24,644 nt of DNA, from UHGV virus genome UHGV-2020843. The stretch is one strand, 5' to 3'. Below, in pieces: positions 1 to 20,333 of the stretch. Source of the stretch: a virus. A program made the position numbers and the translations under genes. The number at the start of each line of letters is the position of its first letter. Position 1 is the first letter of the stretch. Below the pieces are notes generated by a model. That model saw nothing but the letters and a program-made list of their open reading frames with translations. It did no database searches and was not told the DNA's origin.

Positions 1-401
1 GCTGTAGGATTATCAAGCCCGACGTGATCACCATGCCAGTGACTACCGCCATTAATGGAGCAGTCAAAACCTAACAAGATGATGTTTTTCGCCCCCTGGC
101 TGGCAGCAAACAGAATAGCGCGCTGCCCGGAGTTGAAGGCCCACCGGGTATCTGTATCAAACAGATTTAGCCCATAGCGTTTATGAGCCCGGTAATTACA
201 GGTCCAGCGAGAGGCGGAGGACGGCAGAACATCGATGTTTGCATCCCACCAGCGCAGATCACCCGCGTAAATGTATTCACAATCAGGCACGGCTCGCCAG
301 GTGGAGTTAACAGCAATAACCGGCAGCCCCGATCCGGAGATCAGTTCGCAATCTGATTTATTGAGAGACGGGCCGGATGCACAAATGATGAATGTATTCA
401 T
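1..401 (-). CDS. Hypothetical protein, N-terminal 133 aa only (gene continues beyond window start); first gene downstream of Q and the terminator
   Basis: Minus-strand frame open from ATG at 401 to position 1 with no stop (MNTFIICASGPSLNKSDCELISGSGLPVIAV...). GPSL motif is reminiscent of DUF115/MptE-like folds, but this is unverified. Confidence 0.5.
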   Translation of the reverse strand, partial: MNTFIICASGPSLNKSDCELISGSGLPVIAVNSTWRAVPDCEYIYAGDLRWWDANIDVLPSSASRWTCNYRAHKRYGLNLFDTDTRWAFNSGQRAILFAASQGAKNIILLGFDCSINGGSHWHGDHVGLDNPT

Positions 402-594
402 TCGTGTTGACCTGGTTCGGGAGTAATTGGTTACGGTTGCCGATGCTTATCTTCGGCTTGTCTCTGGGGACTGCAATTAACCGTAACGGGGAGAGCACTG
501 AGCCTACTGTGACGGGTTATCGTCACTCTTTCCCCCGAAGGGTGGCCCTCGACGCAGAACGCCCATAAGCCCAATGCTCTTCCCTGTTACGGCC

Positions 595-625
595 ATAAAA
601 AAACCCGCTCGGAGGCGGGTTTAAT
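595..625 (-). terminator. Intrinsic terminator on minus strand (tR'-like position, downstream of Q)
   Basis: Minus-strand reading gives AAACCCGC-CTCCGA-GCGGGTTT followed by TTTTT; lies about 80-110 nt after the Q stop codon. Confidence 0.55.
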
Positions 626-704
626 TTCGTGCAGGCGCAATAACCTACGATTTGAAGCATACACGACAAGTTCGGACAAAATCAAGTTTTAAGTCGCTAA
701 TATG

Positions 705-1508
705 CTAAATTTTGTTCACATCACCACGAAAGCTCGTTGCGTCCTGAAACGCCGAGTCTGCTTTTTGTTCTTCCCTGTGGCAGACGTCGACGAGCACCTC
801 CAGAAACGGTTTCCAGTTACGGGTCCACGTTCTGACGTGCAGATCCGTGACTCGCTTCAGTATCGCTTTATAGGCTGCAGTAGACGGCACCCCAGAAAAT
901 CCGTTTCCGCTGCAGCGCTCGCAGGTTTTGAACACCGGCGCGCCGCGCTCGCTTGTGGCTTTGCGGTCGAGCACCTCACCTTTGCCGCCGCAACGGCATC
1001 GGGCCAGCAGCTCACCTTTACCGTTACATGCCGCGCATTTACGCTTGACCAGTTCGTGCTTGATTTTCGGCGGTACGATTTCCATTCCGTCAGAGTTGAA
1101 GACTCCAGGATGTTTGATCACATCCTCATACTGAGAGGTTAATCCGCTGCCGCTGCAGCTGTGACACGTCACGCTGGTTTCCGCTGAACGGGAGTATTCA
1201 GCAAAGGCGAATTGTGCCAGCGTCAGCATGCACCAGCCAAACTCTCCTGCAGCTGCTTTACGTACATTCCTGGGAGCTGATTCCATTGCATGACGCGCCA
1301 GAGCCTGTACAGCCAGCTGCTCATCACTTTTGCTGATCCCGGTCTTACCAAAGAAGGCAGCCAGACCAAACCGCGCTCGGCTGCTGGTGGTACCAATGGC
1401 CGCCATAACATCGGTGCCGGTGATACGATCCGGAGAGGTTCCTTTCACGTCGTCGCTGATGTGCATTCCCTGAGGGCTAAAGTGTTTTAGTGATGCCTCC
1501 AGTTTCAT
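705..1508 (-). CDS. Q: Late-gene antitermination protein, lambda Q family
   Basis: 267-aa ORF; recalled lambda Q shares blocks EASLKHFSP/ESVAKFHSP, TGTDVMAAIG/SGTDVMAAMG, FGLAAFFGK/FGMAAFCGK, YSRSAET/YCRSAAT, PSTAAYKAI/PASAAYRAV and C-terminal VLVDVCHREEQKAD/ALVVQCHKEESIAD; Cys-rich zinc-finger region. Start overlaps upstream stop as ATGA. Confidence 0.8.
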   Translation of the reverse strand: MKLEASLKHFSPQGMHISDDVKGTSPDRITGTDVMAAIGTTSSRARFGLAAFFGKTGISKSDEQLAVQALARHAMESAPRNVRKAAAGEFGWCMLTLAQFAFAEYSRSAETSVTCHSCSGSGLTSQYEDVIKHPGVFNSDGMEIVPPKIKHELVKRKCAACNGKGELLARCRCGGKGEVLDRKATSERGAPVFKTCERCSGNGFSGVPSTAAYKAILKRVTDLHVRTWTRNWKPFLEVLVDVCHREEQKADSAFQDATSFRGDVNKI

Positions 1509-2365
1509 TCTTCACACTCCCCTACCAGGTTAAGAATCACCGCCGCGCCGTGGTTTTCCATGAATTCGTCCTTTCCACTGTCAAGAAACCAGCGACATAC
1601 CTCAACGGCTTCGACGCGCGTTACGGGTTTGATGGTAGCCAGCAATTTTTCAAGGTAGCGCTCGCGGTCATATACCGATTCGTGATGCTCTGAGTAACCA
1701 AACTCATAGCCCTGTTCTTTAGTTGCAGTGTGGCGAACGCTGTAGAGCCAGTCCCAGTAAACAAACTCACGAACAACGTCAGAAAGCGTATTGGGCTCTG
1801 GCAGTACATCACGATAGCCTTCAACAAATGCCCGGCGCTGTTCATCAATTTCGTTCATACGGCTGCCGTTAATGCTGCCAGCTTTCCTCTCGGCCGGAGT
1901 CCATCCCCAAAGGTGATCGTCGATAAATTTCGGGGAAGACTTGATTACTCGCTCGGCCTCCACATCTTCGAGAGCTGCCTCATAGCTGCCGAACGTGGCC
2001 CTGACTGATGCTGCTTTTTTGATGTCCTCCCGGGCGTTCCTGATTGCCTGTGCCGGGTTATCCATGCCGATGGTACCGAAAGCAACCTGGAAAGGATCGC
2101 CACCATTCGCCAGCAAATAACGCGCGTAACGTTCCTCGGCCTCTTTTGGGGAGATTTCAATTTTCTCCAGCGCGGCTTCGGCTGCGTCCAGATGTGCGGG
2201 TTCGTTCAGACGGATCACCTCCAGCACCCAAAGATAAGCGTCAGTTTGCTTATGCCCGGTGATTCTCCGTTGCTCGGGCAGACGCTTGATGTTTGCGAGG
2301 GCGGAGCTGTGCGCTGCCGTCGGGATGGTGAATAGTGCTTTATGTTCGTTGTTATCAGTACGCAT
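1505..2365 (-). CDS. Hypothetical protein (286 aa) translationally coupled between primase and Q
   Basis: Long ORF with TAATG overlap to primase stop and ATGA overlap to Q start; no motif I can assign. Confidence 0.6.
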   Translation of the reverse strand: MRTDNNEHKALFTIPTAAHSSALANIKRLPEQRRITGHKQTDAYLWVLEVIRLNEPAHLDAAEAALEKIEISPKEAEERYARYLLANGGDPFQVAFGTIGMDNPAQAIRNAREDIKKAASVRATFGSYEAALEDVEAERVIKSSPKFIDDHLWGWTPAERKAGSINGSRMNEIDEQRRAFVEGYRDVLPEPNTLSDVVREFVYWDWLYSVRHTATKEQGYEFGYSEHHESVYDRERYLEKLLATIKPVTRVEAVEVCRWFLDSGKDEFMENHGAAVILNLVGECEE

Positions 2366-3339
2366 TACGCAGCCGCCTTTTTCTTGAAGAAAACCACCTC
2401 ACGAACCTGATCGCCGTTCATGAGCATGTCGTTAAAATCCCCGTTATCCGGGTAGTAGATGCTGATTTTTTCCAGGTCATTTTTTGCCAGTAAGTTGGCA
2501 TGGGCGCATTCCGTGGCCGCAGCCAATCCAGTGGCGCTGTTTACGTCTCGATCTGCGAAAATAATCAAATTTTTCACACCTGCAGGAACACGGAATTTCT
2601 TCATGAATCCGCTGGTCATGGTGGCCCAGGTGTTAACGTTGTATAGCTGCTTGCAGGAAAGAGCCGTTTCGATACCCTCGGCAATTCCGAGGGTCGTCGC
2701 TACCGGGAACATGCGAATAGCGACGGAACGGGCATGATCCAGATAGCTTTCGTCCTGAAGAGATTTCTGGCGCTTCGCTCCGGCAGAATCCCTTAGTTGG
2801 GCTTTCTGATTGCCGTCCAGTAAGGTTCTGTGCAGATAGCAAAGCTCGCCTTTGTCGTCAGTTGCGAGTGAATACAGACACTGGTAAACCTTACCGCCGT
2901 AGCGTTGTTTATCATTGAACTTCACTGCCTCTTGTGGGAGCTGATAAATTCCCCTGGCCTGCAGATATTCCGCCCCGGTAGTTCCTTTCAGGTTGACCAG
3001 TTTCGAAAATTTGGACAGAACCCGATCACGGGCGCTTACGGCATCTGAAGTGCGCGGAAACGCTTCGCGGGTAAAGTTATTACCAATCAGCTGGTCTATT
3101 TCCCTGCAAATTTCATTGAATGGCTTCCCTTGCGTCAGAGTGACAAGCTTCATTCCGTCACCGCTGCCGCAGGTACAGATCCATGTTCCCCGGCCGTCCC
3201 GGTCATCAATACGCAGCTTTCCCCGCGCACCACATACCGGACATTCGCCTTTAAAGTGATTTCTGGCATTAATGGGAGGTAACCCGAAGTGCTCAAAAAT
3301 CATTGCCCATTGACCTTTTGCCGCTTCTGCCGTCTTCAT
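2365..3339 (-). CDS. DNA primase (zinc-ribbon plus TOPRIM domain, phage/P4-type)
   Basis: N-terminal CPVCGARGK...WICTCGSGDG zinc-binding motif followed by TOPRIM-like IAEGIETALS and FADRD acidic motifs; ATGA overlap with helicase stop. Confidence 0.8.
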   Translation of the reverse strand: MKTAEAAKGQWAMIFEHFGLPPINARNHFKGECPVCGARGKLRIDDRDGRGTWICTCGSGDGMKLVTLTQGKPFNEICREIDQLIGNNFTREAFPRTSDAVSARDRVLSKFSKLVNLKGTTGAEYLQARGIYQLPQEAVKFNDKQRYGGKVYQCLYSLATDDKGELCYLHRTLLDGNQKAQLRDSAGAKRQKSLQDESYLDHARSVAIRMFPVATTLGIAEGIETALSCKQLYNVNTWATMTSGFMKKFRVPAGVKNLIIFADRDVNSATGLAAATECAHANLLAKNDLEKISIYYPDNGDFNDMLMNGDQVREVVFFKKKAAA

Positions 3340-4952
3340 GCTCGTTTTCCTAACTGCTGTTTGATATCGCTAATCGCTTTCTGTGCTTGCTGTACTGAGG
3401 ATGGGGCTGCCGTGCCTGATGCCTCCTGCAGGCGCTTGGCCTTCTCCTGCCCTTTCGCATACGCAATCAATTTGTGCCGGATGAAATTAGAGACAGTCGG
3501 GGTGATCTCCATCGGAAAATCGCTTAACCCGTTAGGCCACTCGTCAAACCGTTCGCGAAAGGTATTTGCGCACCAGCCATCGCTGACGGGCTTTTTCCCC
3601 TGCGATACGCGCTGACGCTGATAGAATTTGATCTGACTCCACCAGGCCTGTTTCTCTGCCTTAGTGGGCTGATGCTGGTTTTTACCCAGCTTTTTGAGTT
3701 TGCGGCCGGTGTCGGTATCGACGTCCTCACCGCCCAGCGGCTTATGCCCACATTTCGGGCATACATAGACGCCAGCTGGCTTCATGTAATGGCATTGAGA
3801 GCATTCGTGTGGCAGTTTTTCGGCCCGTTCCTCAGCTGCGCGGCGCGCGCTTTCCTCCATGCCGTCAGACTTACCGGGAAGATCGTCGTACTCGATTGAA
3901 TCCGGATAACCCAAACGGTGCACGGTACCGCTGTGATCGAAGATGAGGCAGGACTCTTTACCCGGTGCGGTGCGCAGGCCACGCCCGAGCGCCTGCAGCC
4001 AGCGAATTTCGCTTTTTGTTGGCCTGGCGTAGATGATGCAACGAACGTCACTATCGAAGCCGGCCACCAGAACGCCCACACTAACGATGATTTTCGTTGC
4101 ACCGGTTTCAAAGCGGTGAATGATGGTCTGGCGTTCATCCACTGGAGTGTCGGCGGTCATGACCTCAGCGTTAACACCCGCCAGGTTAAACTGAATTGTC
4201 AGGTAATTGGCGTGGGCTACGTTGACGCAGAAAGCGATGGTAGGCAGATCCCGGCCATTCTCCAGCCAGTTCTGTACGATGTCGCCCACCAGCGTAGAGC
4301 CGCACATGATTTCAGCCAGCTGCGTTTCGTTGTAATCGCTGCCGTACTCAAGCGATGCTTTGGTTTTAACACCTTTCAGATCCGGCTTAGTTGGCGCGTA
4401 AAATTCATATTTACTCAGATCGCCACGCTGAATTAACTCGCCGATGGTGGTGGGCTTAATCAGTCGGTCATAGTATTTGCCCAGGAACGGGGAAAACGGA
4501 GTACCCGACAGGCCAATCACCTTTACGCCTTTGCCGCGTAGACGGTCGATATCCTTCAGGATGCGTTTTTTACGCAGGTGTGCTTCGTCGATAATCAGCA
4601 GATCGATATTTTCAGGAAAAACACGACGAATAAGCGTATCGGCGCTGGCAATCTGAATTTTCCGGTCCGGATCGTAGTTCGGGTGATCCGCCCAGATATA
4701 ACCGATTTCATCCCCCGGTAATCCATACTCCACGAACCGATTAGCCGTCTGACCGATCAGGATGGTGTACGGTGCACAGAACAGGACGCGCATACCACGG
4801 CTGACAAACCCGGCAACGATGAAGGCCGCCAAACCCGTTTTACCGCTACCGGTTGGCGAATACACCATGAAGGTGTCGTTTGCCTTCCAGTCACGGCGCA
4901 ACATGTTTAGCGCTCGTTCCTGTGCAAAATTCGGCGTGATCGTCAGCTCCAT
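3336..4952 (-). CDS. Phage SF2 DNA helicase (DEAD/DEAH-box type)
   Basis: Walker A SPTGSGKT, Walker B IIDEAHL, C-terminal Cys4 motif CSQCH...CPKCGH; 538 aa; GGGGG ribosome-binding site upstream. Confidence 0.8.
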   Translation of the reverse strand: MELTITPNFAQERALNMLRRDWKANDTFMVYSPTGSGKTGLAAFIVAGFVSRGMRVLFCAPYTILIGQTANRFVEYGLPGDEIGYIWADHPNYDPDRKIQIASADTLIRRVFPENIDLLIIDEAHLRKKRILKDIDRLRGKGVKVIGLSGTPFSPFLGKYYDRLIKPTTIGELIQRGDLSKYEFYAPTKPDLKGVKTKASLEYGSDYNETQLAEIMCGSTLVGDIVQNWLENGRDLPTIAFCVNVAHANYLTIQFNLAGVNAEVMTADTPVDERQTIIHRFETGATKIIVSVGVLVAGFDSDVRCIIYARPTKSEIRWLQALGRGLRTAPGKESCLIFDHSGTVHRLGYPDSIEYDDLPGKSDGMEESARRAAEERAEKLPHECSQCHYMKPAGVYVCPKCGHKPLGGEDVDTDTGRKLKKLGKNQHQPTKAEKQAWWSQIKFYQRQRVSQGKKPVSDGWCANTFRERFDEWPNGLSDFPMEITPTVSNFIRHKLIAYAKGQEKAKRLQEASGTAAPSSVQQAQKAISDIKQQLGKRA

Positions 4953-5380
4953 TGTGCTGCCCCCGTGCTGATGAGATAATAATTTTGTGATGTGGTTTTC
5001 ATGGATTCCCCCTCACATGGCTGGTGGCCTCCCCAAAGGCTGCCAGCCTCCCTTCTGATTCAGCTCCTCTGAAAAAATCACTCTTCCAGGAAGAACCCTT
5101 TTCGTTTCTCAGCGCCTGAGCGCTTTGTACTACCTTGCTGATACAGGCGTTTTTTAAATTGCGCCCTTAAGACAGTGATCTACCTAACCAATGGATCTCT
5201 CCTGTTGGAAAAGACCCTATTCCTGCCCCTACACCCAATCCCCCCTTACCCCCCTTTCCCTCTTCCCCATAAAAACGTACTACTTCCCTAGTACATATGA
5301 GGAGTTGGGTCAGTTGGTTGCCAACCTGAACAGGCACCTTTAAGCCTGCTTCTGTTCGGGTACCTTTAAACCCGAAACAA

Positions 5381-5674
5381 TCAGGATCGCGATTGCGTTC
5401 CAGCCAGGGGAGGTTCGGCGGTATACCCCTGTAAAGCTCTGCCCTGATTTCTCACAAACAGGCGAAGCCTTGTGTTTGCTTCATGCCTTGCCCGGTTCTC
5501 CTTGCGGTACGAAACGGGTTCGGCCTCGAACGTCTCCTGATACACTGCTGCATAACGCTGCATGGCTTTTTGTTTGGCGGCCATACTGAGTGACTGCAGT
5601 TGCTCACCTATCCACTGACTGTCCGCAAGGCAAAACACAGCTGGCATCTCTAACTGCTGAAATGCCTGTGACAT
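5381..5674 (-). CDS. Hypothetical protein (97 aa) immediately downstream of cro (cII-like position)
   Basis: In-frame ATG at 5674 lies 1 nt after the cro stop; the open frame extends to 5776 (131 aa) but that would overlap cro by about 100 nt. No recognisable similarity to lambda CII. Confidence 0.4.
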   Translation of the reverse strand: MSQAFQQLEMPAVFCLADSQWIGEQLQSLSMAAKQKAMQRYAAVYQETFEAEPVSYRKENRARHEANTRLRLFVRNQGRALQGYTAEPPLAGTQSRS

Positions 5675-5675
5675 A

Positions 5676-5906
5676 TCAGATATCCCCGGAAGGTCGTGGG
5701 AATACCGTTGGGATATCAGGCCGTAATTCGTATGGCTTAACCTCCCCGTTTGTAGCCATTGAGATAGCGACTGCATTTTGAGGGGAAATCTTCTGATGGT
5801 TGTTCAGCCACTTCCAAACAGCCCCCTGAGTGACACCGATGGCTCTAGCCAACGCAGATTGGCCCCCTGCCAATCTCACTGCTTTCTGAATAGCGTTTTC
5901 TGACAT
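5676..5906 (-). CDS. cro: Cro/YdaS-like helix-turn-helix regulator
   Basis: 76-aa ORF with HTH-like segment QSALARAIGVTQGAVWKW, divergent from the cI-like repressor across an operator-containing intergenic region. Confidence 0.7.
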   Translation of the reverse strand: MSENAIQKAVRLAGGQSALARAIGVTQGAVWKWLNNHQKISPQNAVAISMATNGEVKPYELRPDIPTVFPRPSGDI

Positions 5907-5922
5907 ATTAGCGCCCTTAAAA

Positions 5923-6010
5923 ATACTTTAGGATTTGGATGATATTACCATAGTATTAATTTAGCAAGAATACTCTAGTGTTGAATGGAAAAAGCTTTTG
6001 TACTAAATTA
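5923..6010. promoter_or_regulatory. Immunity switch: three operator sites (5923-5936, 5945-5958, 5970-5983) with divergent PR-like and PRM-like promoters
   Basis: Three 14-bp sites each 2 mismatches from palindrome AATACTATAGTATT, spaced 22-25 bp. Minus strand -35 TTGCTA (5963-5968) and -10 TATCAT (5940-5945), 17-bp spacer, for cro. Plus strand -35 TTGAAT (5982-5987) and -10 TAAATT (6005-6010), 17-bp spacer, for cI. Confidence 0.5.
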
Positions 6011-6039
6011 ATCCGATCGTATTAACCAGAGGCAAAAAC

Positions 6040-6747
6040 ATGAGTGGAACGACTTTTTCGGACCGGCTAAGAGACAGCATGCAGAAGGCTGGGCTGACCC
6101 AAAGCCAGTTAGCTGAAGCAGTCGGAGTGTCACAGGGGGCAATTCAGAAACTTGTATCTGGTAAGGCAAAGTCGACAACTAAGCTTGTTCAGATAGCTAA
6201 TGTCCTTGGTGTTCGCCCTGAATGGTTAAGCGAAGGCGTTGGTGCGATCCGTAAATCAGATGATTTCCCTCCAGAAGAAAAGTGGAGCAAAGTCGAGACC
6301 TGGGATAGCAACACGCCTTTAGAATCTGATGAAGTGGAAGTCCCATTCCTTAAAGATATTGAGTTTGCATGCGGTAGCGGCAGAGTTATGGAAGAAGATT
6401 ACAACGGTTATAAACTGAGGTTTTCGAAGTCTACCCTGAGAAGAGTTGGAGCAAGCACAGATGGTTCAGGCATTATCTGTTTCCCGGCTGCCGGGAACAG
6501 TATGGAACCACTCATACCAGACGGTACAACAGTGGCTGTTAACATCGAAGACAAAAAAATCGTTGATGGAAAGATTTACGCGATCAATCAGGAAGGGTGG
6601 AAGCGGATCAAACTCCTATACCGGACAGGCCCGGATGAGTTGACTATCCGTAGCTATAACGCAGAAGAGTACCCTGATGAGGTAGTGAAGATGTCCAGCG
6701 TAGAGGTCGTTGGTAGAGTGTTTTGGACTTCTACAGTTTGGAACTAA
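6040..6747 (+). CDS. cI: CI-type phage repressor (N-terminal HTH, C-terminal S24/LexA-like peptidase domain)
   Basis: 235 aa; HTH LTQSQLAEAVGVSQGAIQKL; C-terminal AGNSMEP Ser motif and downstream Lys (KRIK), typical of autocleaving LexA/CI repressors; GAGG ribosome-binding site upstream. Confidence 0.85.
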   Translation: MSGTTFSDRLRDSMQKAGLTQSQLAEAVGVSQGAIQKLVSGKAKSTTKLVQIANVLGVRPEWLSEGVGAIRKSDDFPPEEKWSKVETWDSNTPLESDEVEVPFLKDIEFACGSGRVMEEDYNGYKLRFSKSTLRRVGASTDGSGIICFPAAGNSMEPLIPDGTTVAVNIEDKKIVDGKIYAINQEGWKRIKLLYRTGPDELTIRSYNAEEYPDEVVKMSSVEVVGRVFWTSTVWN

Positions 6748-6748
6748 G

Positions 6749-6770
6749 CCGGGGAAACCCGGTTTTTTTT
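6749..6770 (+). terminator. Intrinsic terminator after cI
   Basis: CCGGG-GAAA-CCCGG hairpin followed by T8, immediately after the cI stop codon. Confidence 0.65.
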
Positions 6771-6828
6771 GCGAAAAAAAATAAAATCCATTATTTTCAT
6801 TAGGTTACATGAAAAAGAAAATAAGATT

Positions 6829-6869
6829 AATACTATAGTATTGACGCGGGATTAATCCTCCCCTATTCT
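6829..6869 (+). promoter_or_regulatory. PL-like early promoter with perfect palindromic operator
   Basis: Perfect 14-bp palindrome AATACTATAGTATT (6829-6842) overlapping -35 TTGACG (6841-6846); 17-bp spacer; -10 TATTCT (6864-6869); about 30 bp upstream of ORF 6901. Confidence 0.5.
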
Positions 6870-6900
6870 CATCTCATCGGCAAACAACGGAGCCAGTGAG

Positions 6901-7221
6901 ATGACGACCAATACGACAATCAAAAAATTATATCAGCTTGTTGATATTCCAGATTTTCGCTACAGCAAAGATAGTTCAAGTATTGATTATGGTGATATTG
7001 CATCAGATTGCGATACTAAAACTGTTTCTATCTTTGAAGCCATTAACCATATCAGCTTAAATATTTTTTCCATTGCTGAAGATAAAGAAATCAGCAAAGA
7101 AAAGATATTAAACCTTTCTTGTATCATCGCTGACCTTGCAGAAATTGGAATGGCAACGAATAAAATTTCTCAAGCTGCCTCATATCTTTCTGGATTAAAG
7201 GATGGCAATCATGGCGCATGA
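6901..7221 (+). CDS. Hypothetical small acidic protein (106 aa), first gene after the PL-like promoter
   Basis: ORF in AT-rich segment directly downstream of predicted early promoter; no recognisable motif. Confidence 0.5.
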   Translation: MTTNTTIKKLYQLVDIPDFRYSKDSSSIDYGDIASDCDTKTVSIFEAINHISLNIFSIAEDKEISKEKILNLSCIIADLAEIGMATNKISQAASYLSGLKDGNHGA

Positions 7222-7405
7222 ATTTTCATTAGAACAAGCGAAAGAGAAAGCATATCAGGCAGAAATAATCTGCAAAATGATTGAGTTATACCCCAACAAA
7301 ATGGACTGTTCTGAAATCGAGGCCATTGCAGCATTATTAAGTAAGTTAACCAGTGATGTTTGTGCATGGTTAATTGAAGAGCAAGCTATTAGATCCAACG
7401 CTTAG
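7211..7405 (+). CDS. Hypothetical small acidic protein (about 65 aa)
   Basis: ORF overlapping the previous gene's end (alternative start at 7202); AT-rich. Confidence 0.45.
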   Translation: MAHEFSLEQAKEKAYQAEIICKMIELYPNKMDCSEIEAIAALLSKLTSDVCAWLIEEQAIRSNA

Positions 7406-7578
7406 TTTTTTTAGATTCCTAAATAAATAACAGCTTTATTGCTGAGGGGATTCCATACACTTTTTTAGGAAAAAACATGATAAACATCAACGCCTTTAAT
7501 ACTGCTAAGTTATTTTGTTCAGCCGGTTACTGGGATATTGCGAATTTATATCTCAGGAAAGCATACGGGAGATAAATC

Positions 7579-7803
7579 ATGTCAACACAAGATCGCCAAG
7601 ACGTGCAAGGTGTGAATATTAAAGCTGAACAACTTAACTTCCTTATGCAAACAATTCACGCTCACCATAAGGATTTTGACTGCCATCAACTTGATGGCCT
7701 TTTAGGTCTGGCTTATGACCTTGCCGGGTCGGTATATAGCTGGCCCGAGGCAGAGGAAAGGATCGTTTTAGAAAATGAAGATGCACAAAGAAAGGTGTAT
7801 TAA
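7579..7803 (+). CDS. Hypothetical small acidic protein (74 aa)
   Basis: ORF with GGGAG ribosome-binding site; stop TAA immediately followed by the next ATG. Confidence 0.5.
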   Translation: MSTQDRQDVQGVNIKAEQLNFLMQTIHAHHKDFDCHQLDGLLGLAYDLAGSVYSWPEAEERIVLENEDAQRKVY

Positions 7804-8169
7804 ATGGATAATTTAACCAATACGTATCGCCGAAGAATTTTAAAAGCTGCGTTATTACGCCACCAGCGTAAAACCGGAAGCACCTGCATCATTATTAATA
7901 TGCCTAAAGGTGGAATAAACACAGTCGAATTAACAGAAATACTGCTTGATGGTTTGTTGAGACGATTCGAAAAGCTGGCTCTCAGTGAATACGGGAATAT
8001 CGACGGTGTAAAAGCCATCAGAGGAATTTACAGCAACGCCGTAGATGTGAATGGCAGCGGTGAGTTCCTGACAGAAAGCGGAAAGGCATTAATCGACGAT
8101 CTCATTGCTGAGCTGGTCGAATTTGCTAAGAAACAAAAATCAGTCACAGCGGAGACAAGCCATGAGTGA
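7804..8169 (+). CDS. Hypothetical protein (121 aa) with arginine-rich N-terminus
   Basis: ORF begins MDNLTNTYRRRILKAALLRHQRK; contiguous with flanking ORFs. Confidence 0.5.
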   Translation: MDNLTNTYRRRILKAALLRHQRKTGSTCIIINMPKGGINTVELTEILLDGLLRRFEKLALSEYGNIDGVKAIRGIYSNAVDVNGSGEFLTESGKALIDDLIAELVEFAKKQKSVTAETSHE

Positions 8170-8374
8170 TCAGACACCAATTATCACGCACGAACCAGTA
8201 AATATCGTGCTGACAATCGAGAACGGGAAAGTTATCCACGCGCGCCCGGTTCAGAACGGCGAGGTTACAGCATCGCTGGAGACTTTTTTATGGATGGCTG
8301 AACAAGCCGGTTACACGATCACCCCACCTGCAGGAGAGAAGGACAATGGCCCTGACAGCGATACGAATTCCTGA
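8162..8374 (+). CDS. Hypothetical small acidic protein (70 aa); candidate antitoxin partner of the following ORF
   Basis: ATG at 8162 with GGAG ribosome-binding site 7 nt upstream; overlaps upstream stop and overlaps downstream ORF by 29 nt. Confidence 0.45.
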   Translation: MSDQTPIITHEPVNIVLTIENGKVIHARPVQNGEVTASLETFLWMAEQAGYTITPPAGEKDNGPDSDTNS

Positions 8375-8567
8375 GTGGGTGCACCTGCAGGCGGTCCATG
8401 TCCTCCGCCAGTTCAGAGCCAGGCGGATTCATCCCTGCCGTATGCACGGCTCCGGAAACCTGAGCCTGAGGGTTAATCGCCGCTGGCGGCTGCTGTCCCG
8501 AGACGGCGGCCATAACTGGGAAGTAATGAGCCATGAACGATACAGCAAACTGAAGGACAGAAAATGA
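8346..8567 (+). CDS. Candidate RelE/ParE/HigB-superfamily toxin-like protein (73 aa)
   Basis: Segment GSGNLSLRVNRRWRLLSRDGGHNWEVMSHERY resembles the RelE/HigB core (recalled E. coli HigB GGNELRVVAMVFF...YIREVMTHKEYD); strong ribosome-binding site GGAGAGAAGGA; GC-rich relative to neighbours. Confidence 0.4.
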   Translation: MALTAIRIPEWVHLQAVHVLRQFRARRIHPCRMHGSGNLSLRVNRRWRLLSRDGGHNWEVMSHERYSKLKDRK

Positions 8568-8665
8568 AAGCGCTTTTCCTTTCCCTGCTGTTTGGCCTGT
8601 TATTGGTGGCCGTCGTTTTCGGCGCGCTGATTGAGTACAAATTTTTGATGGATTTCGGGAGTTGA
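8564..8665 (+). CDS. Small hydrophobic peptide (33 aa), likely membrane-inserted
   Basis: MKALFLSLLFGLLLVAVVFGALIEYKFLMDFGS; ATGA overlap with upstream stop; AAGGA ribosome-binding site. Confidence 0.4.
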   Translation: MKALFLSLLFGLLLVAVVFGALIEYKFLMDFGS

Positions 8666-8880: not shown

Positions 8881-9275
8881 GCAAATCAGCAAAAGAGCTT
8901 TATACCGTACCTGAATGGATGCGCCCATACCTTACGTTATTCCAAAACACTGGAGGTAATGACGTTGAGGATCTGCTGCACGATGAAGACACCAATATGT
9001 TCGCAAATAGCATTCGGTACATGTTGATCGTGTCCGCTCGTTCACAATTCAGATTGCTGATGGATATGTATAAAAATGGGCAGATTATCGAGCTTGAAAC
9101 GATGAAAACAGACCCTGTTGGTGAAGATTATCAGTCAGCGATCGACATCTTGCGCGACAGAGCTGCTCGCGAACTCGATGGTGGTTTTCGCTCACATCAC
9201 AACGCCCTGATTTATGCAGCTAATGAACTGGAAAATGCCCAGGCCTTCGGGCGGGAGGTCAGCCATGAGTCTTGA
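8877..9275 (+). CDS. Hypothetical protein (132 aa)
   Basis: ORF with ATGA overlap to the upstream stop; no recognisable motif. Confidence 0.5.
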   Translation: MSKSAKELYTVPEWMRPYLTLFQNTGGNDVEDLLHDEDTNMFANSIRYMLIVSARSQFRLLMDMYKNGQIIELETMKTDPVGEDYQSAIDILRDRAARELDGGFRSHHNALIYAANELENAQAFGREVSHES

Positions 9276-9474
9276 TTGCGTACCCCTTTCTACGTACTGC
9301 AGGGACGCGGGGGAAACGGTAGAAGCCGTTAACAAACGGATACAAAGGGGGTTATGGAAGGAGGGAGTACATGTATTAAAAGTCGATGGCGTTAAAGAAC
9401 GCTGGATTGACTTAACGGAGGTTTCAAAGTGGGCAAGAAAGAACAAGGATCATTATCTCTCCCAAGAGGAGTAA
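9265..9474 (+). CDS. xis: Excisionase-like protein
   Basis: About 69 aa, immediately upstream of and overlapping the integrase; GGGAGG ribosome-binding site; small basic DNA-binding-like protein in the canonical xis position. Confidence 0.55.
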   Translation: MSLDCVPLSTYCRDAGETVEAVNKRIQRGLWKEGVHVLKVDGVKERWIDLTEVSKWARKNKDHYLSQEE

Positions 9475-10601
9475 CCATCCGCCAGCATAAAACTGGCGAC
9501 ACTCTGGTTATCACTTTCACATACAAAGGGGTTCTGTGCCGGGAGCCCCTCTCCAAAATGGAAGCAAACGCGCGCGGTGTGAAGTACGCCGAGCGCCTGC
9601 TCGGGGAGATACAGAACCAGATCGTCAGTGGCACCTTTGAATATGCGAAATATTTCCCCAACTCCAAAAAGCTGGAGCTATTCGGGGTGGTGAAGAAAAC
9701 CAAAAACATAAAGTCCTACCTGGACGAGTACCTCAAAATCTGCCAGAACCGCAACCTGTCCCCGTCGACTATAAATGGTTATGAAAAATGCCTGTCGGCA
9801 CTGTCAGCTCTGCATAAACTCCACGTGTCAGAACTGACGCCAGCGGTCCTTAAAAACTGGATAGCCAGCCGGAAAACAAAGCTGAAAACGACCAGGAATA
9901 ACCTTTCGTTTCTGCGCAGCGCAATCGATGAAGCTGTTACGGATGGCCTGCTGACCATTAACCCGGTAACCCTCGTCAGCGCCAGCCGGTACCACGTGAT
10001 CGACAGCAGCCCGAGCGCCGACGATTACGAGGTTGACCCGTTCACGCCAGCGGAGACCCTCGCCATTTACCAGAACTGCAGGTACCCGGAATGGGAAAAC
10101 CTGTTCCGCTTTGCTTTCAATACCGGTCTGCGGAGCTCCGAACTGTGCGCGCTGCGCTGGCCTGATCTCGACACCATCGCGAACACAGCCCACGTTCAGG
10201 CGGCCAGTGTCGTAGGGGTACTTAAAGGCACCAAGACAAAAGCCGGTACCCGCAAGGTGGAGCTGAACAGTGAGGCGCTGGCGGCCCTGCAGGCGCAGAA
10301 GCAATACACCTTTATGAAAAGTGAGTTCATATTCAGCGATCCGAAAACGGGAGAACCCTGGGCGAACGCCGACGCTATCCGTAAAAAAGCATGGGTGCCG
10401 ACCCTGAAAAAAGCTGGCGTGCGCTACCGTAACCCGTACCAGACGCGGCACACATTCGCCACCAAGCATATTAGCCAGGGCGTTAACCTCTTCTGGCTTG
10501 CCGGACAGATGGGCCACAAAGGGCCGGAAATGATATTCCGCAACTACGGTAAATACCTGGCTGAATATGACGGTAAAACCGCGATTTCAACCGCGCTGTA
10601 G
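9429..10601 (+). CDS. int: Tyrosine site-specific integrase (lambda Int-like)
   Basis: 390 aa; C-terminal catalytic region with RHTFATKH, GHKG and YGKY (R-H-R-Y type residues); located next to the attachment-site core. Confidence 0.85.
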   Translation: MGKKEQGSLSLPRGVTIRQHKTGDTLVITFTYKGVLCREPLSKMEANARGVKYAERLLGEIQNQIVSGTFEYAKYFPNSKKLELFGVVKKTKNIKSYLDEYLKICQNRNLSPSTINGYEKCLSALSALHKLHVSELTPAVLKNWIASRKTKLKTTRNNLSFLRSAIDEAVTDGLLTINPVTLVSASRYHVIDSSPSADDYEVDPFTPAETLAIYQNCRYPEWENLFRFAFNTGLRSSELCALRWPDLDTIANTAHVQAASVVGVLKGTKTKAGTRKVELNSEALAALQAQKQYTFMKSEFIFSDPKTGEPWANADAIRKKAWVPTLKKAGVRYRNPYQTRHTFATKHISQGVNLFWLAGQMGHKGPEMIFRNYGKYLAEYDGKTAISTAL

Positions 10602-10724: not shown

Positions 10725-10760
10725 TTTCGGACGCGAGTTCAACTCCCGCCAGCTCCACCA
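10725..10760 (+). other. Attachment-site core: 36-nt copy of the 3' end of tmRNA (ssrA) ending in CCA, not a complete gene
   Basis: TTTCGGACGCGAGTTCAACTCCCGCCAGCTCCACCA matches the recalled 3' end of E. coli ssrA with one mismatch (A for G in the T-arm stem); sequence upstream does not resemble the ssrA body. Confidence 0.7.
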
Positions 10761-10839: not shown

Positions 10840-10963
10840 GTGCCCTCAATTTGTCCCGCGAAGTCCGAAGAGAACTAATTAAATCCGAACCTTTTAGGCC
10901 CATTGATAGGCCCAACGAAAAGCTCTATTGTTTACGTTGGGCCTAAACGCAGGGAGACTCCCC

Positions 10964-12205
10964 ATGGCAAGAAAAACCAAGCCGTTAACTGATACGGAAA
11001 TCAAAGCCGCCAAACCTAAAGATGCCGATTACCAGCTTTATGACGGTGACGGGCTTACTCTGTTAATCAAGTCCAGTGGCAGTAAGCTTTGGCAATTCCG
11101 TTACTATCGGCCTTTGACCAAGCAGCGAACCAAACAGAGCTTCGGTGCCTATCCTGCCGTCTCGCTTTCTGATGCACGTAAACTCAGAGCCGAATCTAAA
11201 GTTTTATTGGCGAAAGACATTGATCCTCAGGAACATCAGAAAGAACAGGTGAGGAATTCTCAAGAGGCCAAAACCAATACCTTCTTGTTAGTTGCCGAGC
11301 GTTGGTGGAATGTGAAGAAAACCAGCGTAACAGAGGACTATGCCGACGATATCTGGCGCTCGCTTGAGAGAGATATTTTCCCGGCAATCGGTGATATCAG
11401 TATCACTGAGATTAAGGCTCATACTCTGGTTAAAGCAGTTCAGCCGGTTCAGGCCAGAGGTGCATTAGAGACTGTTCGCCGCCTTTGTCAGCGTATTAAC
11501 GAAGTCATGATTTATGCGCAGAACACAGGCCTGATTGATGCTGTTCCTAGTGTAAATATCGGAAAAGCTTTCGAGAAACCGCAAAAGAAAAACATGCCAA
11601 GCATCCGGCCGGATCAACTTCCGCAGCTAATGCACACCATGCGTACGGCAAGTATCAGCATGTCCACAAGATGCCTGTTCATGTGGCAACTTCTAACCAT
11701 CACCCGCCCTGCCGAAGCTGCTGAGGCTCGATGGGATGAGATCGATTTCAATGCTAGCGAATGGAAAATTCCTGCAGCTCGAATGAAGATGAACCGGGAC
11801 CATACGGTTCCACTATCTGATGGGGCTCTTGCTATTCTGGAAATGATGAAGCCTCTCAGTGGTGGCCGAGAATTTATCTTTCCTAGCCGTATCAAGCCCA
11901 ACCAACCAATGAATAGCCAAACAGTGAATGCAGCACTCAAGCGTGCTGGCTTAGGAGGTGTACTTGTTTCACACGGCTTGCGTTCTATCGCCAGTACGGC
12001 ACTCAATGAGGAAGGATTTCCACCTGATGTCATTGAAGCAGCGCTTGCTCATGTAGACAAAAATGAGGTGCGTCGCGCTTATAACCGCAGTGATTATCTT
12101 GAGCAACGTCGTCCGATGATGCAATGGTGGGCTGATCTCGTAAAAGCAGCAGATAGTGGTAGCATCGTTTTAACTCATTTGAGCAAAATTCGTCTTGTCG
12201 GATAA
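10964..12205 (+). CDS. intA: P4-type tyrosine integrase IntA
   Basis: 413 aa starting MARKTKPLTDTEIKAAKPKDADYQLYDGDGLTL; AGGGAG ribosome-binding site; C-terminal HGLRS...AHVDKNEVRRAYNRSDY catalytic region. Confidence 0.9.
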   Translation: MARKTKPLTDTEIKAAKPKDADYQLYDGDGLTLLIKSSGSKLWQFRYYRPLTKQRTKQSFGAYPAVSLSDARKLRAESKVLLAKDIDPQEHQKEQVRNSQEAKTNTFLLVAERWWNVKKTSVTEDYADDIWRSLERDIFPAIGDISITEIKAHTLVKAVQPVQARGALETVRRLCQRINEVMIYAQNTGLIDAVPSVNIGKAFEKPQKKNMPSIRPDQLPQLMHTMRTASISMSTRCLFMWQLLTITRPAEAAEARWDEIDFNASEWKIPAARMKMNRDHTVPLSDGALAILEMMKPLSGGREFIFPSRIKPNQPMNSQTVNAALKRAGLGGVLVSHGLRSIASTALNEEGFPPDVIEAALAHVDKNEVRRAYNRSDYLEQRRPMMQWWADLVKAADSGSIVLTHLSKIRLVG

Positions 12206-12448
12206 AATATTTATCAGCCCAGCTCTCTGGGCTGATATTTCTAAAAGATCGCACTAAATAGCTACGCGGAATAGTGCTCTACTTTCGTTTAGCCCTTTCA
12301 GAGGTAAGACATTAGGGCAATTTCACTGTATGACTGCGCAGTCATCGAGTCTGTGGGGTGTTGCTCCTTTTGCAACGTATCACTTGTCAATAAATAGAAA
12401 GTGTAGATGTATTAGGCGCAGCTATTTAGTCTATATGGCAAGTAGTAA

Positions 12449-13405
12449 TTATTTACTTCTTTTTTTTCTACGAACAGCGCTATCGAAAGCTTGTTTTACA
12501 TCTTCATTTTTTAAAGACCATTGATTTAAAATAGTATCAACCAAAGCATCTTGACTCATTGTTGCTACACGATATTTTTTATTTTGATTATTTATCTCAA
12601 ACTCTGACATTTGAATAAAATCCCATAGCGGTTCGATAAGTTCATTAACTGCTACAACCTTATTTTTCCACCCATCATTCGGAACAGAGTCATTAATTAG
12701 CTCAACCAACTTCAGTTGAATGATATGGTACACTTCCGCTTTGCTTTTGCCACCCTTCTTTCCTGCACTCCGCCTGACTTCTGATAATTTTTTTTGATTA
12801 CAAACAGAGATGTTAAACCAAGTCATACCTATGCACTTATCAAATAACTCCGCAGCCCGATGAAATGCTTTAAAGGCAACGTTTTCATTTTCAGACATGA
12901 TAGATTTTCCCCAGAAAAAAGAGATTGAGGCGAACATAAGGTGTGCCTTGAAAATGTCATTAATGGAAAATGGCTCGATAACAAGAGGTAAAAACGTTTC
13001 CTTGGTAAGGTTTGAACTTAGATTTTTCCAGCATTCTTGAGCTGGATCATATAATTCAGTGTATTCTTCCTTTATCTCCAGTTGCCCATTCACTGTATGG
13101 TGCCTTGTTTCCCATGGTACATCGCAGGAATATAACCTCACACGAGTACCTATTTTCTCAGAGCTCCAGAATTGCTCTCGCATTCTGCCTAGCTCAATCC
13201 GTATTTCCGGATGATCTTCCTCTAGAACATCAGTATCCACCGCCCATTCGCATTCGGACATGTGATAGGCGAGATCACGTCGTTTTCTACAAATTTGTTC
13301 ATAAAAATCATTCAGAGAAATCATAAAACCACCATAAATCAATGTATTAGAGGTTGTAAAAATTGTATTTTTGGTACATGGGTTTTTTGCCTTAAAGATA
13401 CCCAT
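12449..13405 (-). CDS. yfjH: Uncharacterised island protein YfjH (318 aa from ATG at 13405; alternative start at 13324)
   Basis: AT-rich ORF between intA and alpA, on the opposite strand; position and length match recalled CP4-57 yfjH. Confidence 0.65.
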   Translation of the reverse strand: MGIFKAKNPCTKNTIFTTSNTLIYGGFMISLNDFYEQICRKRRDLAYHMSECEWAVDTDVLEEDHPEIRIELGRMREQFWSSEKIGTRVRLYSCDVPWETRHHTVNGQLEIKEEYTELYDPAQECWKNLSSNLTKETFLPLVIEPFSINDIFKAHLMFASISFFWGKSIMSENENVAFKAFHRAAELFDKCIGMTWFNISVCNQKKLSEVRRSAGKKGGKSKAEVYHIIQLKLVELINDSVPNDGWKNKVVAVNELIEPLWDFIQMSEFEINNQNKKYRVATMSQDALVDTILNQWSLKNEDVKQAFDSAVRRKKRSK

Positions 13406-13448
13406 TAATCTCTCTGCAACCAAAGTGAACCAATGAGAGGCAACAAGA

Positions 13449-13661
13449 ATGAACAATCGATCGGCCGTTAGAATACTACGGTTACCAGCGGTTATCCAAA
13501 AAACAGGTATGGCACGGGCCACCATCTATGACTGGTTGAACCCCAAATCACCACGATACGATGCCACCTTTCCCAAAAAGCGAATGCTCGGCGTGAAATC
13601 TGTCGGATGGATTGAGGCCGAGATTGATGAGTGGTTATCACAACGCTGTAAACTTATTTGA
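13449..13661 (+). CDS. alpA: AlpA-family transcriptional regulator (excision/int regulator)
   Basis: 70 aa, MNNRSAVRILRLPAVIQKTGMARATIYDWL HTH typical of AlpA/phage regulatory proteins. Confidence 0.85.
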   Translation: MNNRSAVRILRLPAVIQKTGMARATIYDWLNPKSPRYDATFPKKRMLGVKSVGWIEAEIDEWLSQRCKLI

Positions 13662-13789
13662 GGGTGTTACATGAATTCATACTCAATTGCTGTCATCGGA
13701 GTGTAAACATCCTGCTATTTCCGCCATTAATAGCGGAATAGCCATATTTGCTAAACAATTTCTTAATTTAATTAAATAAGAGGCATTGC

Positions 13790-15199: not shown

Positions 15200-15351
15200 T
15201 TTTAATGACAATCTAAAAGGACTTAATTTAAGAGTAAAAACAAACTCTAAACCCAGTTCGGATAAAAGCTTGTCATCTTGATAGGTAATATATAGGTACA
15301 TAGACACATCAGAACGATCACTTACTCCAATATCATTGGCCAGGATACTAT

Positions 15352-15978: not shown

Positions 15979-15996
15979 TTTATTTTTTACAACAAT

Positions 15997-16035
15997 GGCC
16001 TTTCTTATGGCTGGAAAGGCCTGATTTGTTTGTAT
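15997..16035 (+). terminator. Intrinsic terminator between convergent yfjJ and yfjK
   Basis: GGCCTTTC-9 nt loop-GAAAGGCC hairpin followed by T-rich TGATTTGTTTGTATT. Confidence 0.6.
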
Positions 16036-16155
16036 TAAGATATCGGTAATCTTTTGATGGTTGGAAGCCCGTCCTGGTAGACGACCTAGCCTACCGAAGA
16101 TGTGAGTTATTCAAAAATGTCGCTTTCCCGCGTTCCGTAGACAAACGTACCTAAA

Positions 16156-20284: not shown

Positions 20285-20333
20285 CGCCAGCGATTGTAAT
20301 CACACTTGATATTATAAAACACAGTTGCACGCA

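What the first reader, a model, noticed from the sequence alone, without database searches (positions are those of the whole stretch)
5907..6869. Complete lambda-style bistable switch with a distinct operator family (consensus AATACTATAGTATT)
Three operator-like sites between divergent cro and cI overlap predicted PR and PRM elements, and a perfect copy of the palindrome overlaps the -35 of a PL-like promoter downstream of the cI terminator. The repressor has an intact S24 autocleavage domain. This suggests an inducible, possibly still functional prophage with its own immunity specificity.
Basis: seen in the sequence. Interest (0 to 1): 0.45.

Follow-up and report, generated by a model that had tools for sequence, protein, structure and literature searches.

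The report
Lambdoid prophage immunity switch, uncharacterised operator
This is an ordinary lambda-type prophage on/off switch (repressor, Cro and their shared DNA binding sites) whose binding-site sequence has not been described, although the same switch occurs in many enterobacterial prophages and in one isolated Yersinia phage.

Summary
The core AATAC-N4-GTATT occurs five times with at most one mismatch. Four copies lie between cro (5679-5906, -) and cI (6040-6747, +), and a perfect copy lies at 6829-6842. About 0.03 are expected locally, and no shuffle of 20,000 reached two.

Support from other loci:
- All nine loci with 96-100% identical cI keep every site at the same offset.
- Relatives with 54-62% identity carry different 14-bp palindromes at matching positions, and these track the recognition helix.
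- No variable intergenic column falls on a core position.

cI has a 434-like HTH domain. Its phi80-like S24 domain has C111-G112, S154 and K191 in place. Cro belongs to the Cro family.

The ~2.2 kb module (5574-7801) is a swappable immunity cassette in a Fels-1/ENT39118-like prophage at what appears to be ssrA.

The specificity is not private. The identical cI is on 70 contigs, and Yersinia phage YP3 has a 95% identical cI and the same OL/PL, but lacks cro and sites A-C.

Binding, bistability, SOS induction and prophage viability are inferred, not shown. Verdict: new member of a known kind, low interest.

The parts
5679..5906 (-). cro gene (76 aa); stop codon at 5676-5678
   Evidence: Pfam YdaS_toxin 5e-23 and P22_Cro 9e-9. 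It matches PDB Cro proteins 3bd1 and 5w8y at about 1e-6 and phrog_35. The exact sequence is on 124 contigs.
5381..5674 (-). first gene after cro (97 aa, function unknown); its start codon is 1 nt after the cro stop
   Evidence: phrog_852, 3e-37, no Pfam hit. YP3 annotates the same gene. The left joint of the immunity cassette (5573/5574) lies inside it.
5922..5935 (.). operator site A, AATACTTTAGGATT; covers the predicted PR start (about 5932)
   Evidence: One core mismatch. Identical in 9 related loci.
5944..5957 (.). operator site B, ATTACCATAGTATT; lies in the PR spacer and touches the -10
   Evidence: One core mismatch. The only variant among relatives is at central position 6, C to T.
5969..5982 (.). 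operator site C, AATACTCTAGTGTT; 1 bp upstream of the PR -35 and sharing 2 bp with the PRM -35 (centre about -40 from the PRM start)
   Evidence: One core mismatch. The only variant is at central position 9. Site 2 of L014 and L017 abuts the same TTGAAT hexamer.
   Evidence: One core mismatch. Invariant in all relatives, including YP3. Distant relatives have their own palindrome at the same offset from the cI ATG: 3970 there against 3971 here.
5939..5967 (-). PR: -35 TTGCTA (5967-5962), 17-nt spacer, -10 TATCAT (5944-5939)
   Evidence: Promoter scan, 9 of 12. Some relatives have TTGCCA.
5981..6009 (+). candidate PRM: -35 TTGAAT, 17-nt spacer, -10 TAAATT (8 of 12); AGAGG ribosome-binding site at 6028-6032
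   Evidence: Read from the sequence; below the scan threshold. The same TTGAAT next to an operator occurs in L014 and L017.
6040..6747 (+). cI repressor (235 aa): 434-like HTH domain and phi80-like S24 domain with C111-G112, S154 and K191
   Evidence: Pfam HTH_3 2.5e-13 and Peptidase_S24 3e-17, covering profile positions 5-116 of 116. 434 repressor 1.5e-8. phi80 cI 50% identity. Alignment with LexA and lambda cI.
6746..6773 (+). intrinsic terminator after cI (8-bp stem followed by T8)
   Evidence: -14 kcal/mol, z -2.3. The stem keeps pairing in relatives despite base changes.
6829..6842 (.). left operator, promoter-distal site: perfect AATACTATAGTATT; its last two bases are the first two of the PL -35
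   Evidence: Invariant in 8 aligned loci beside a variable spacer.
6854..6867 (.). candidate promoter-proximal left-operator site, AATCCTCCCCTATT; lies in the PL spacer and overlaps the -10 by 4 bp
   Evidence: Two core mismatches, which is chance level alone. It lies 25 bp from the distal site, the same spacing as B to C. L012 has AATACTCCCCTATT, one mismatch fewer. Relatives have a second site in the same place.
6841..6869 (+). PL-like promoter: TTGACG, 17-nt spacer, TATTCT
   Evidence: Promoter scan, 9 of 12, in the window and in YP3. Invariant in 8 loci through to the next ATG.
6901..7803 (+). three small genes of unknown function after PL (6901-7221, 7202-7405, 7579-7803), inside the immunity cassette
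   Evidence: phrog_2583, phrog_1478 and phrog_8959, all of unknown function. The right joint of the cassette is at 7801/7802.

Best explanation
Window 5574-7801 is the immunity cassette of a lambdoid (Fels-1/ENT39118/phi467-like) prophage.

Proposed mechanism (all steps inferred, none shown):
- A dimeric cI with a 434-type HTH domain binds 14-bp sites with the core AATAC-N4-GTATT.
- In the lysogen, cI on sites A and B blocks PR, and with it cro, the helicase, the primase and Q.
- cI on site C sits about -40 from PRM. It probably stabilises binding at B and stimulates cI transcription.
- Site D, over the PRM start, would shut PRM off when occupied by excess cI or by Cro.
- After the cI terminator, the perfect site plus a weak promoter-proximal site flank the -35 and -10 of PL, as OL2 and OL1 do in lambda. 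They hold the leftward operon, which runs to xis and int, silent.
- DNA damage would trigger RecA-stimulated self-cleavage at C111-G112 by S154 and K191.
- Cro would then bind the same sites and lock in lytic growth.

Shown here: the sequence elements, their conservation, homology, and co-variation of the operator with the recognition helix. Inferred: binding, site hierarchy, activation, cleavage and bistability.
For: - Enrichment: 5 core sites against 0.66 expected in the window and 0.025 expected locally, with 0 of 20,000 shuffles reaching 2.
- All five sites sit at identical offsets in L003 and L007-L013 and in L021, all with 96-100% identical cI. They are absent from loci with 54-62% identical cI.
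- Those distant loci have their own palindromes at matching positions. L014 and L017 have ATAACC-N2-GGTTAT three times. L005 and L018 have ACAAC-N4-GTTGT. L015 has ATAGCATATGCTAT.
- The recognition helix tracks the operator: SQG with AATAC, SQA with ACAAC, SQP with ATAAC or ATAGC. L005 and L018 share both helix and operator.
- Eleven intergenic columns vary among 10 loci. None is in the 40 core positions and two are in central positions (P = 0.016).
- The spacer between the terminator and the left operator is variable, but the left operator, PL and its 5'UTR are invariant.
- Domains and catalytic residues are in place.
- The 20-mer covering the left operator and the PL -35 occurs in 8 viral contigs. 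Seven are the contigs that carry this cI.
- The cassette is exchanged as a unit against an otherwise 96-99% identical backbone.
Against: - There are no binding, transcript or induction data.
- PRM is only an 8 of 12 match, chosen by eye.
- The proximal left-operator site is at chance level by sequence. Without it, the perfect site sits in the same geometry as the presumed activating site C.
- No cII, cIII or N homologue was recognised.
- The close relatives are too similar for real co-variation statistics within the group.
- The operator-helix correlation rests on about five specificity classes read by eye.
Confidence: 0.85

Rival explanations
1. The switch is intact in sequence but belongs to a defective or cryptic prophage. 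It would then act only as a repressor module that silences leftover phage genes and gives superinfection immunity, like the Rac RacR/YdaS or Qin DicA/DicC modules. It would not control a phage that can be induced and released.
For: - The window shows only about 10.7 kb of the prophage (Q to int).
- One relative with the identical Q (L019) runs from the lysis genes through three tail-associated genes to DinI and SmpB, with no terminase, portal or head genes called, and so looks truncated.
- Cro's best Pfam match is the YdaS family, which is named after a cryptic-prophage protein.
- The prophage sits in tandem with a second island at the same site.
Against: - L021 is 100% identical to window 1-8569 and continues into lysozyme, a portal and a Mu-F-like head gene.
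- All the early genes seen (Q, primase, helicase, cro, cI, xis, int) are full-length open reading frames.
- cI keeps its cleavage site and catalytic dyad. RacR-type repressors have no S24 domain (my knowledge).
- A plaque-forming phage, YP3, carries the same cI and left operator/PL.
Confidence: 0.25
2. The perfect palindrome at 6829-6842 is an activator site rather than a repressor site for the downstream promoter. On this reading the three small cassette genes (6901-7803) are expressed in the lysogen, like lambda rexAB, for example as exclusion functions.
For: - The junction between operator and -35 is the same at site C/PRM (…GTGTTGAAT) and at the left operator/PL (…GTATTGACG). In both, the operator's last TT is the start of the -35.
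- The proximal site that would give steric repression is weak.
- The three genes travel with the immunity cassette.
Against: - Lambda OL2/PL and OR2/PR have the same overlap with the -35 and are repressive together with OL1 and OR1 (established knowledge of lambda).
- Relatives have clear second sites in the PL spacer.
- The same transcription direction leads on to xis and int, which should be silent in a lysogen.
- The -35 TTGACG is already strong and should not need activation.
Confidence: 0.08
3. The repeats are not repressor sites. They would be chance AT-rich or -10-like (TATAGT) sequences, or sites for another DNA-binding protein.
For: The intergenic regions are AT-rich (34% G+C), and the palindrome centre resembles a -10 hexamer.
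Against: - The local shuffle test gave 0 of 20,000.
- The repeats occur only next to this cI among viral contigs, apart from one chance hit inside a tail-fibre gene.
- Relatives with another recognition helix have another palindrome at the same offsets.
Confidence: 0.03

Closest known systems
Bacteriophage lambda immunity region (cI, Cro, OR1-3, OL1-3, PR, PRM, PL)
   Same: - Divergent cI and cro around a multi-site operator.
- One site abuts the PRM -35 at about -40, as OR2 does.
- One site lies over PRM, like OR3 in function.
- PL lies downstream of cI in the same direction, with one site overlapping its -35 and a possible site in its spacer and -10, as with OL2 and OL1.
- The predicted PR and PRM starts are about 84 bp apart, against 82 in lambda (my recall).
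- The repressor carries an S24 self-cleaving domain.
   Different: - Operators are 14 bp rather than 17 bp, with an unrelated sequence.
- There are four right-operator sites with spacings of 22, 25 and 41 bp.
- Site D lies at the PRM start, not in its spacer.
- The cI mRNA has a leader and a ribosome-binding site instead of being leaderless.
- There are no rexAB genes, so the left and right operators are only about 0.9 kb apart.
- The strongest left-operator site is the promoter-distal one.
- No recognisable N, cII or cIII was found.
Phage 434 repressor and Cro with 14-bp operators (ACAA-N6-TTGT)
   Same: The N-terminal domain is homologous (phmmer 1.5e-8 to 1.6e-7 over residues 6-67). The operator is a 14-bp palindrome whose central bases vary between sites. 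Gln at the position of 434 Q28 is kept.
   Different: The residues at 434 positions 29 and 33 are Gly and Lys instead of Gln and Gln (alignment). The half-site is AATAC rather than ACAA. Cro here is of the P22/Xfaso-1 Cro type, not a 434 Cro paralogue of the repressor.
Phage phi80 cI
   Same: It is the closest characterised repressor, at 50% identity overall, and the C-terminal two thirds are much more similar. It has the same VEVPFLKDIEFACG(D/S)G motif. A Cys-Gly scissile bond is known for phi80 cI and for UmuD (my knowledge, not checked against a paper here).
   Different: The N-terminal DNA-binding domain is not alike: STSPQTVNNWIKR in phi80 against VSQGAIQKLVSGK here. The annotated phi80 O-R and O-L regions hold AAATCAACA/AATCCACA-type repeats, not this palindrome.
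Yersinia phage YP3 (PV092592.1) and unnamed prophages of Enterobacter, Citrobacter, Salmonella and E. coli
   Same: cI is 95-100% identical, and the left operator, PL and its 5'UTR are identical, so they belong to the same predicted immunity group.
   Different: YP3 has a clean 317-bp deletion matching window 5685-6001. It removes cro, sites A-C, PR and the PRM -35. None of these elements has a published operator analysis that I could find.

Membership tests
Lambdoid cI/Cro immunity switch | Divergently transcribed repressor and cro genes separated by a short regulatory region | tested here: met
   cro is at 5679-5906 (-) and cI at 6040-6747 (+), with a 133-bp gap between them.
Lambdoid cI/Cro immunity switch | Repressor made of an N-terminal HTH domain and a C-terminal LexA-like S24 domain, with a scissile (Ala/Cys)-Gly bond and a Ser/Lys dyad | tested here: met
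   Pfam HTH_3 and Peptidase_S24. C111-G112, S154 and K191 align with LexA A84-G85, S119 and K156 and with lambda A111-G112, S149 and K192.
Lambdoid cI/Cro immunity switch | Small Cro-family DNA-binding protein as the first gene of the rightward operon | tested here: met
   P22_Cro 9e-9, YdaS 5e-23, and PDB 3bd1 'Cro protein' 9e-7.
Lambdoid cI/Cro immunity switch | Several related palindromic operators overlapping PR and PRM, and a second operator set at PL | tested here: met
   Sites A-D and the left operator, placed against the promoters. PRM was placed by eye only.
Lambdoid cI/Cro immunity switch | Repressor and Cro actually bind these sites; bistability; SOS-dependent induction | not testable with these tools
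   This needs EMSA or footprinting, reporter fusions and induction experiments.
Lambdoid cI/Cro immunity switch | Establishment and antitermination functions (cII, cIII, N) beside the switch | tested here: inconclusive
   The genes flanking the switch match only PHROG families of unknown function and have no Pfam hit. A Q antiterminator is present at 705-1508. These proteins diverge quickly, so failure to find them proves little.
434-type repressor DNA-binding domain | Sequence homology to the 434 repressor N-terminal domain across the whole five-helix domain | tested here: met
   phmmer 1.5e-8 to 2.5e-7, query residues 6-67 against chain residues 2-63.
434-type repressor DNA-binding domain | Same immunity specificity as 434 (ACAA…TTGT operators; Q28, Q29 and Q33 in the recognition helix) | tested here: not met
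   The helix reads Q-G-A-I-Q-K and the operators are AATAC-N4-GTATT. This is the same fold family but a different specificity.
phi80 cI family | Full-length homology including the C-terminal cleavage and oligomerisation domain | tested here: met
   50% identity over 232 residues, E = 3e-84.
Cryptic-prophage RacR/YdaS-type module | Repressor without an S24 domain, paired with a YdaS-like protein | tested here: not met
   Cro matches the YdaS family, but the partner repressor has a full S24 domain.

The most novel reading that the evidence does not exclude
The cassette may define an uncharacterised, widely spread immunity group of Enterobacterales phages whose wiring departs from lambda in two ways. 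First, the right operator has four sites, with the autoregulatory site moved downstream of the PRM -10. Second, the high-affinity left-operator site sits in the activating geometry and the promoter-proximal site is degenerate. cI might therefore tune or even stimulate the PL-side cassette genes in lysogens rather than simply silence them.

Linked to this, the therapeutic Yersinia phage YP3 would be a spontaneous cro/OR deletion derivative of a temperate phage of this group. It still carries cI and an integrase. It would be sensitive to the immunity of such lysogens.
Probability: 0.12. Interest if true: 0.4.

Novelty: new member of a known kind. Interest (0 to 1): 0.2.

Why it matters
The practical value is modest. 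The result gives a concrete, testable operator (AATAC-N4-GTATT) and a site map for an immunity group found in Enterobacter, Citrobacter, Salmonella, E. coli and Yersinia phages. That allows prediction of which lysogens are immune to which phages.

The set of related repressors offers a small natural series for reading the recognition code of 434-type domains: SQG with AATAC, SQA with ACAAC, SQP with ATAAC or ATAGC.

It also flags that phage YP3, which has been used experimentally in trout, is derived from a temperate phage and retains a repressor and an integrase.

It does not change how lambdoid switches are understood.

Tried and rejected
- Megablast of 5600-7000 against complete E. coli genomes found nothing, so the module is not in that set.
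- ARAGORN and Rfam (gathering threshold) on the whole window found nothing. No RNA gene explains the region.
- Full-text searches found no paper holding the palindrome and no open paper on the phi80 Cys-Gly bond.
- The 20-mer scan of viral contigs gave one extra locus, L025. It proved to be a chance match inside a 749-aa tail-fibre-like ORF of an AT-rich phage with no cI.
- Allowing two core mismatches gives 14 matches against 9.8 expected. This setting is uninformative, so the 6854-6867 site cannot be claimed from sequence alone.
- I first read TAATAT at the YP3 deletion joint as a good -10. It is only 4 of 6, and the scan finds no 9 of 12 promoter there, so I dropped the idea that the deletion creates a clear fusion promoter.
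- Alternative PRM placements (TTTGTA, 17-nt spacer, TATTAA, with site D in the spacer as in relatives) are weaker, and that -10 lacks its final T, so I rejected them.
- The 10-bp palindromes AAAAGCTTTT (5990-5999) and GGATTAATCC (6849-6858) are each broken in some relatives and were not pursued.
- No structure prediction was run, because the sequence evidence was sufficient.

Full report
**Observation**

- A 76-aa gene on the minus strand (5679-5906) and a 235-aa gene on the plus strand (6040-6747) diverge from a 133-bp gap.
- The palindrome AATACTATAGTATT is perfect at 6829-6842. It recurs with 2 mismatches at 5922, 5944 and 5969, and with 3 mismatches at 6010. That is five matches against 0.75 expected.
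- The sites are better described as AATAC-N4-GTATT. On that pattern the left operator (OL) is perfect and each of the four right-operator (OR) sites has one good half and one half with a single mismatch. That is 5 matches against 0.66 expected in the window.
- Shuffling only the two AT-rich intergenic stretches gives 0.025 expected sites, and none of 20,000 shuffles reached two.
- The promoter scan places PR on the minus strand (TTGCTA 5967-5962, TATCAT 5944-5939). It places a PL-like promoter at TTGACG 6841-6846 and TATTCT 6864-6869.
- A canonical terminator follows cI at 6746-6765 plus T8, folding at -14 kcal/mol.

**The proteins**

cI:
- It has HTH_3 (2.5e-13) and a full-length Peptidase_S24 match (3e-17, profile positions 5-116 of 116).
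- Its N-terminal domain is homologous to the 434 repressor domain (1.5e-8).
- Over its whole length the closest characterised relative is phi80 cI (50% identity). The C-terminal part is far more conserved and shares the motif VEVPFLKDIEFACG(D/S)G.
S154 and K191 are invariant and align with the catalytic Ser and Lys.
- Cys-Gly is the scissile bond in UmuD and, as I recall, in phi80 cI. One family member (L018) has Ala-Gly at the same position.

Cro:
- The small protein matches P22_Cro and YdaS.
- It also matches solved Cro proteins 3bd1 and 5w8y.

**Comparative evidence that the palindromes are the operators**

1. Conservation. Eight loci with 96-100% identical cI (L003, L007-L013) keep all five sites at identical offsets. 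So does L021, which carries the identical cI. The eight loci with 54-62% identical cI do not have them.
2. Other specificities. The distant loci carry their own 14-bp palindromes at matching positions upstream and downstream of cI.
   - L014 and L017: ATAACC-N2-GGTTAT at offsets 3921, 3946 and 3970.
   - L005 and L018: ACAAC-N4-GTTGT.
   - L015: ATAGCATATGCTAT.
   - L004: ATAAC-type sites.
3. Helix tracking. The recognition helix changes with the operator: VSQGAIQK with AATAC, ISQAAIQK with ACAAC, and (V/I)SQP or AQP with ATAAC or ATAGC. L005 and L018 share both helix and operator. The varying residue is at the position of Gln29 of 434 repressor. I read this correlation by eye over about five classes.
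4. Column variation. Among ten close loci, 11 of the 133 intergenic columns vary. None falls in the 40 core positions, and two fall in the central N4 (P = 0.016).
5. Footprint at OL. Downstream of cI, the ~50 bp between the terminator and OL differ freely among eight loci. The sequence from AAAATAAGATTAATACTATAGTATTGACG through the -10 to the next ATG is almost invariant.
6. Co-occurrence. A 20-mer spanning OL and the -35 occurs in eight viral contigs. Seven are the contigs that carry this cI. The eighth is a chance hit inside a tail-fibre-like ORF.

**Anatomy and likely mechanism (inferred)**

Relative to PR (start near 5932):
- Site A covers +1.
- Site B fills the spacer and touches the -10.
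- Site C lies 1 bp upstream of the -35.

Relative to PRM:
- A weak PRM can be read as TTGAAT 5981-5986, a 17-nt spacer, then TAAATT 6004-6009. This is 8 of 12 and below the scan threshold.
- Its -35 shares two bases with site C, so C is centred near -40, like lambda OR2 at PRM.
- The same TTGAAT abuts the second operator in L014 and L017.
- Site D lies over the predicted PRM start.
- Every distant relative has a palindrome at the same offset from the cI ATG, so D is a family feature. It is the functional counterpart of OR3.

At PL:
- The perfect site overlaps the -35 by two bases, as lambda OL2 does.
- A candidate second site, AATCCTCCCCTATT (6854-6867), lies 25 bp away, the same spacing as B to C. 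It overlaps the -10.
- By sequence alone that site is at chance level.
- L012 has a variant closer to consensus (AATACTCCCCTATT), and relatives have clear second sites there.

Proposed model:
- cI on A and B, helped by C, shuts PR.
- cI on C stimulates PRM.
- D limits PRM.
- OL shuts PL.
- RecA-stimulated cleavage at C111-G112 relieves all of this.
- Cro then takes over.

**Context**

- The left arm (Q at 705-1508, an unknown gene, primase, helicase) resembles Fels-1, ENT39118 and phi467.
- PL leads through small unknown genes to xis (9214-9474) and int (9429-10601).
- L019 and L020 are 99.3% identical to window 1-5573 and 96% identical from 7802 onward. Between those points they carry a different repressor and cro pair. 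Window 5574-7801 therefore behaves as a classic exchangeable immunity cassette.
- L021 is 100% identical to window 1-8569 and continues into lysis and head genes. The same phage therefore exists with late genes, but the window itself cannot show whether this copy is complete.
- The exact cI sequence is on 70 contigs and the exact Cro on 124. They are named from the Enterobacter cloacae complex, Citrobacter, Salmonella, Kluyvera and E. coli. The exact integrase is named mostly from Enterobacter roggenkampii, the likely kind of source genome.

**Comparison with known systems and novelty**

- The wiring is that of lambda, 434 and phi80.
- The repressor combines a 434-like DNA-binding domain with a phi80-like cleavage domain.
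- The operator sequence is absent from the searchable literature. It differs from the operators of lambda, 434 and P22 (my knowledge) and from the annotated phi80 operator regions.
- The only isolated phage of this group in the phage collection is Yersinia phage YP3. Its cI is 95% identical and its OL/PL is identical.
- This is a new member of a known kind, not a new mechanism.

**What remains open**

- Binding, site hierarchy, activation from C, the role of D, and repression against stimulation at PL.
- SOS cleavage, bistability and prophage viability.
- What replaces PR in YP3.

Noticed in passing
L001 (Yersinia phage YP3, PV092592.1) 8084/8085, equivalent to window 5685-6001: YP3 is a plaque-forming phage that has been tested in rainbow trout. 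It has a clean 317-bp deletion that removes cro, operator sites A-C, PR and the PRM -35. It keeps cI, the left operator and PL, an excisionase and a tyrosine integrase. No 9 of 12 promoter is found at the joint, so what drives its early-right operon is unexplained. It looks like a virulent-type deletion derivative of a temperate phage.
   Followed up: partly
window 10729-10760: GGACGCGAGTTCAACTCCCGCCAGCTCCACCA looks like the 3' end of ssrA (tmRNA), from my recall. No complete tmRNA or tRNA gene is called in the window. It lies between the prophage int gene and a second integrase gene, which suggests two elements inserted in tandem at ssrA. In L019 the far end of the related prophage borders smpB.
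   Followed up: partly
window 10928-22176: A CP4-57-like island lies here. It carries an integrase (10928-12205), YfjI (13790-15199), YfjJ (15352-15978) and a Hachiman-type defence pair: the AbpB helicase (16156-18345), whose sequence is one named for E. coli AbpB, plus a Cap4-nuclease/HamA protein (18342-19958). It also carries an RnlA-type toxin (20739-21812) followed by a small ORF (21805-22176).
   Followed up: partly
window 5573/5574 and 7801/7802; L019 and L020: These are sharp mosaic joints. Prophages with the identical Q and a 99.3% identical replication arm carry a different immunity cassette (222-aa cI and a 74-aa HTH_3 Cro). The left joint falls inside the 97-aa gene after cro. Window 8569 is another recurrent breakpoint, being both a contig end and the end of several matches.
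   Followed up: partly
window 5643-5666 (-): A hairpin lies about 10 nt after the cro stop, inside the first codons of the next gene (-13.6 kcal/mol, z -1.7). It is followed by a poor T-run. YP3 conserves it, with changes only in the loop. It could be a tR1-like pause or terminator site.
   Followed up: no
window 6849-6858 and 5990-5999: Two 10-bp perfect palindromes of another kind sit in promoter spacers: GGATTAATCC in PL and AAAAGCTTTT in the candidate PRM. Each is broken in at least one close relative, so they are probably not functional sites.
   Followed up: partly
L019 (GCA_048767915.1 contig) 15700-20804: This relative with the identical Q runs from the lysis genes through three tail-associated genes (a baseplate wedge, a Gp53-like protein and a tail fibre assembly protein) to DinI and then host smpB. 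No terminase, portal or head genes are called, so it looks like a truncated copy of the same prophage backbone.
   Followed up: no
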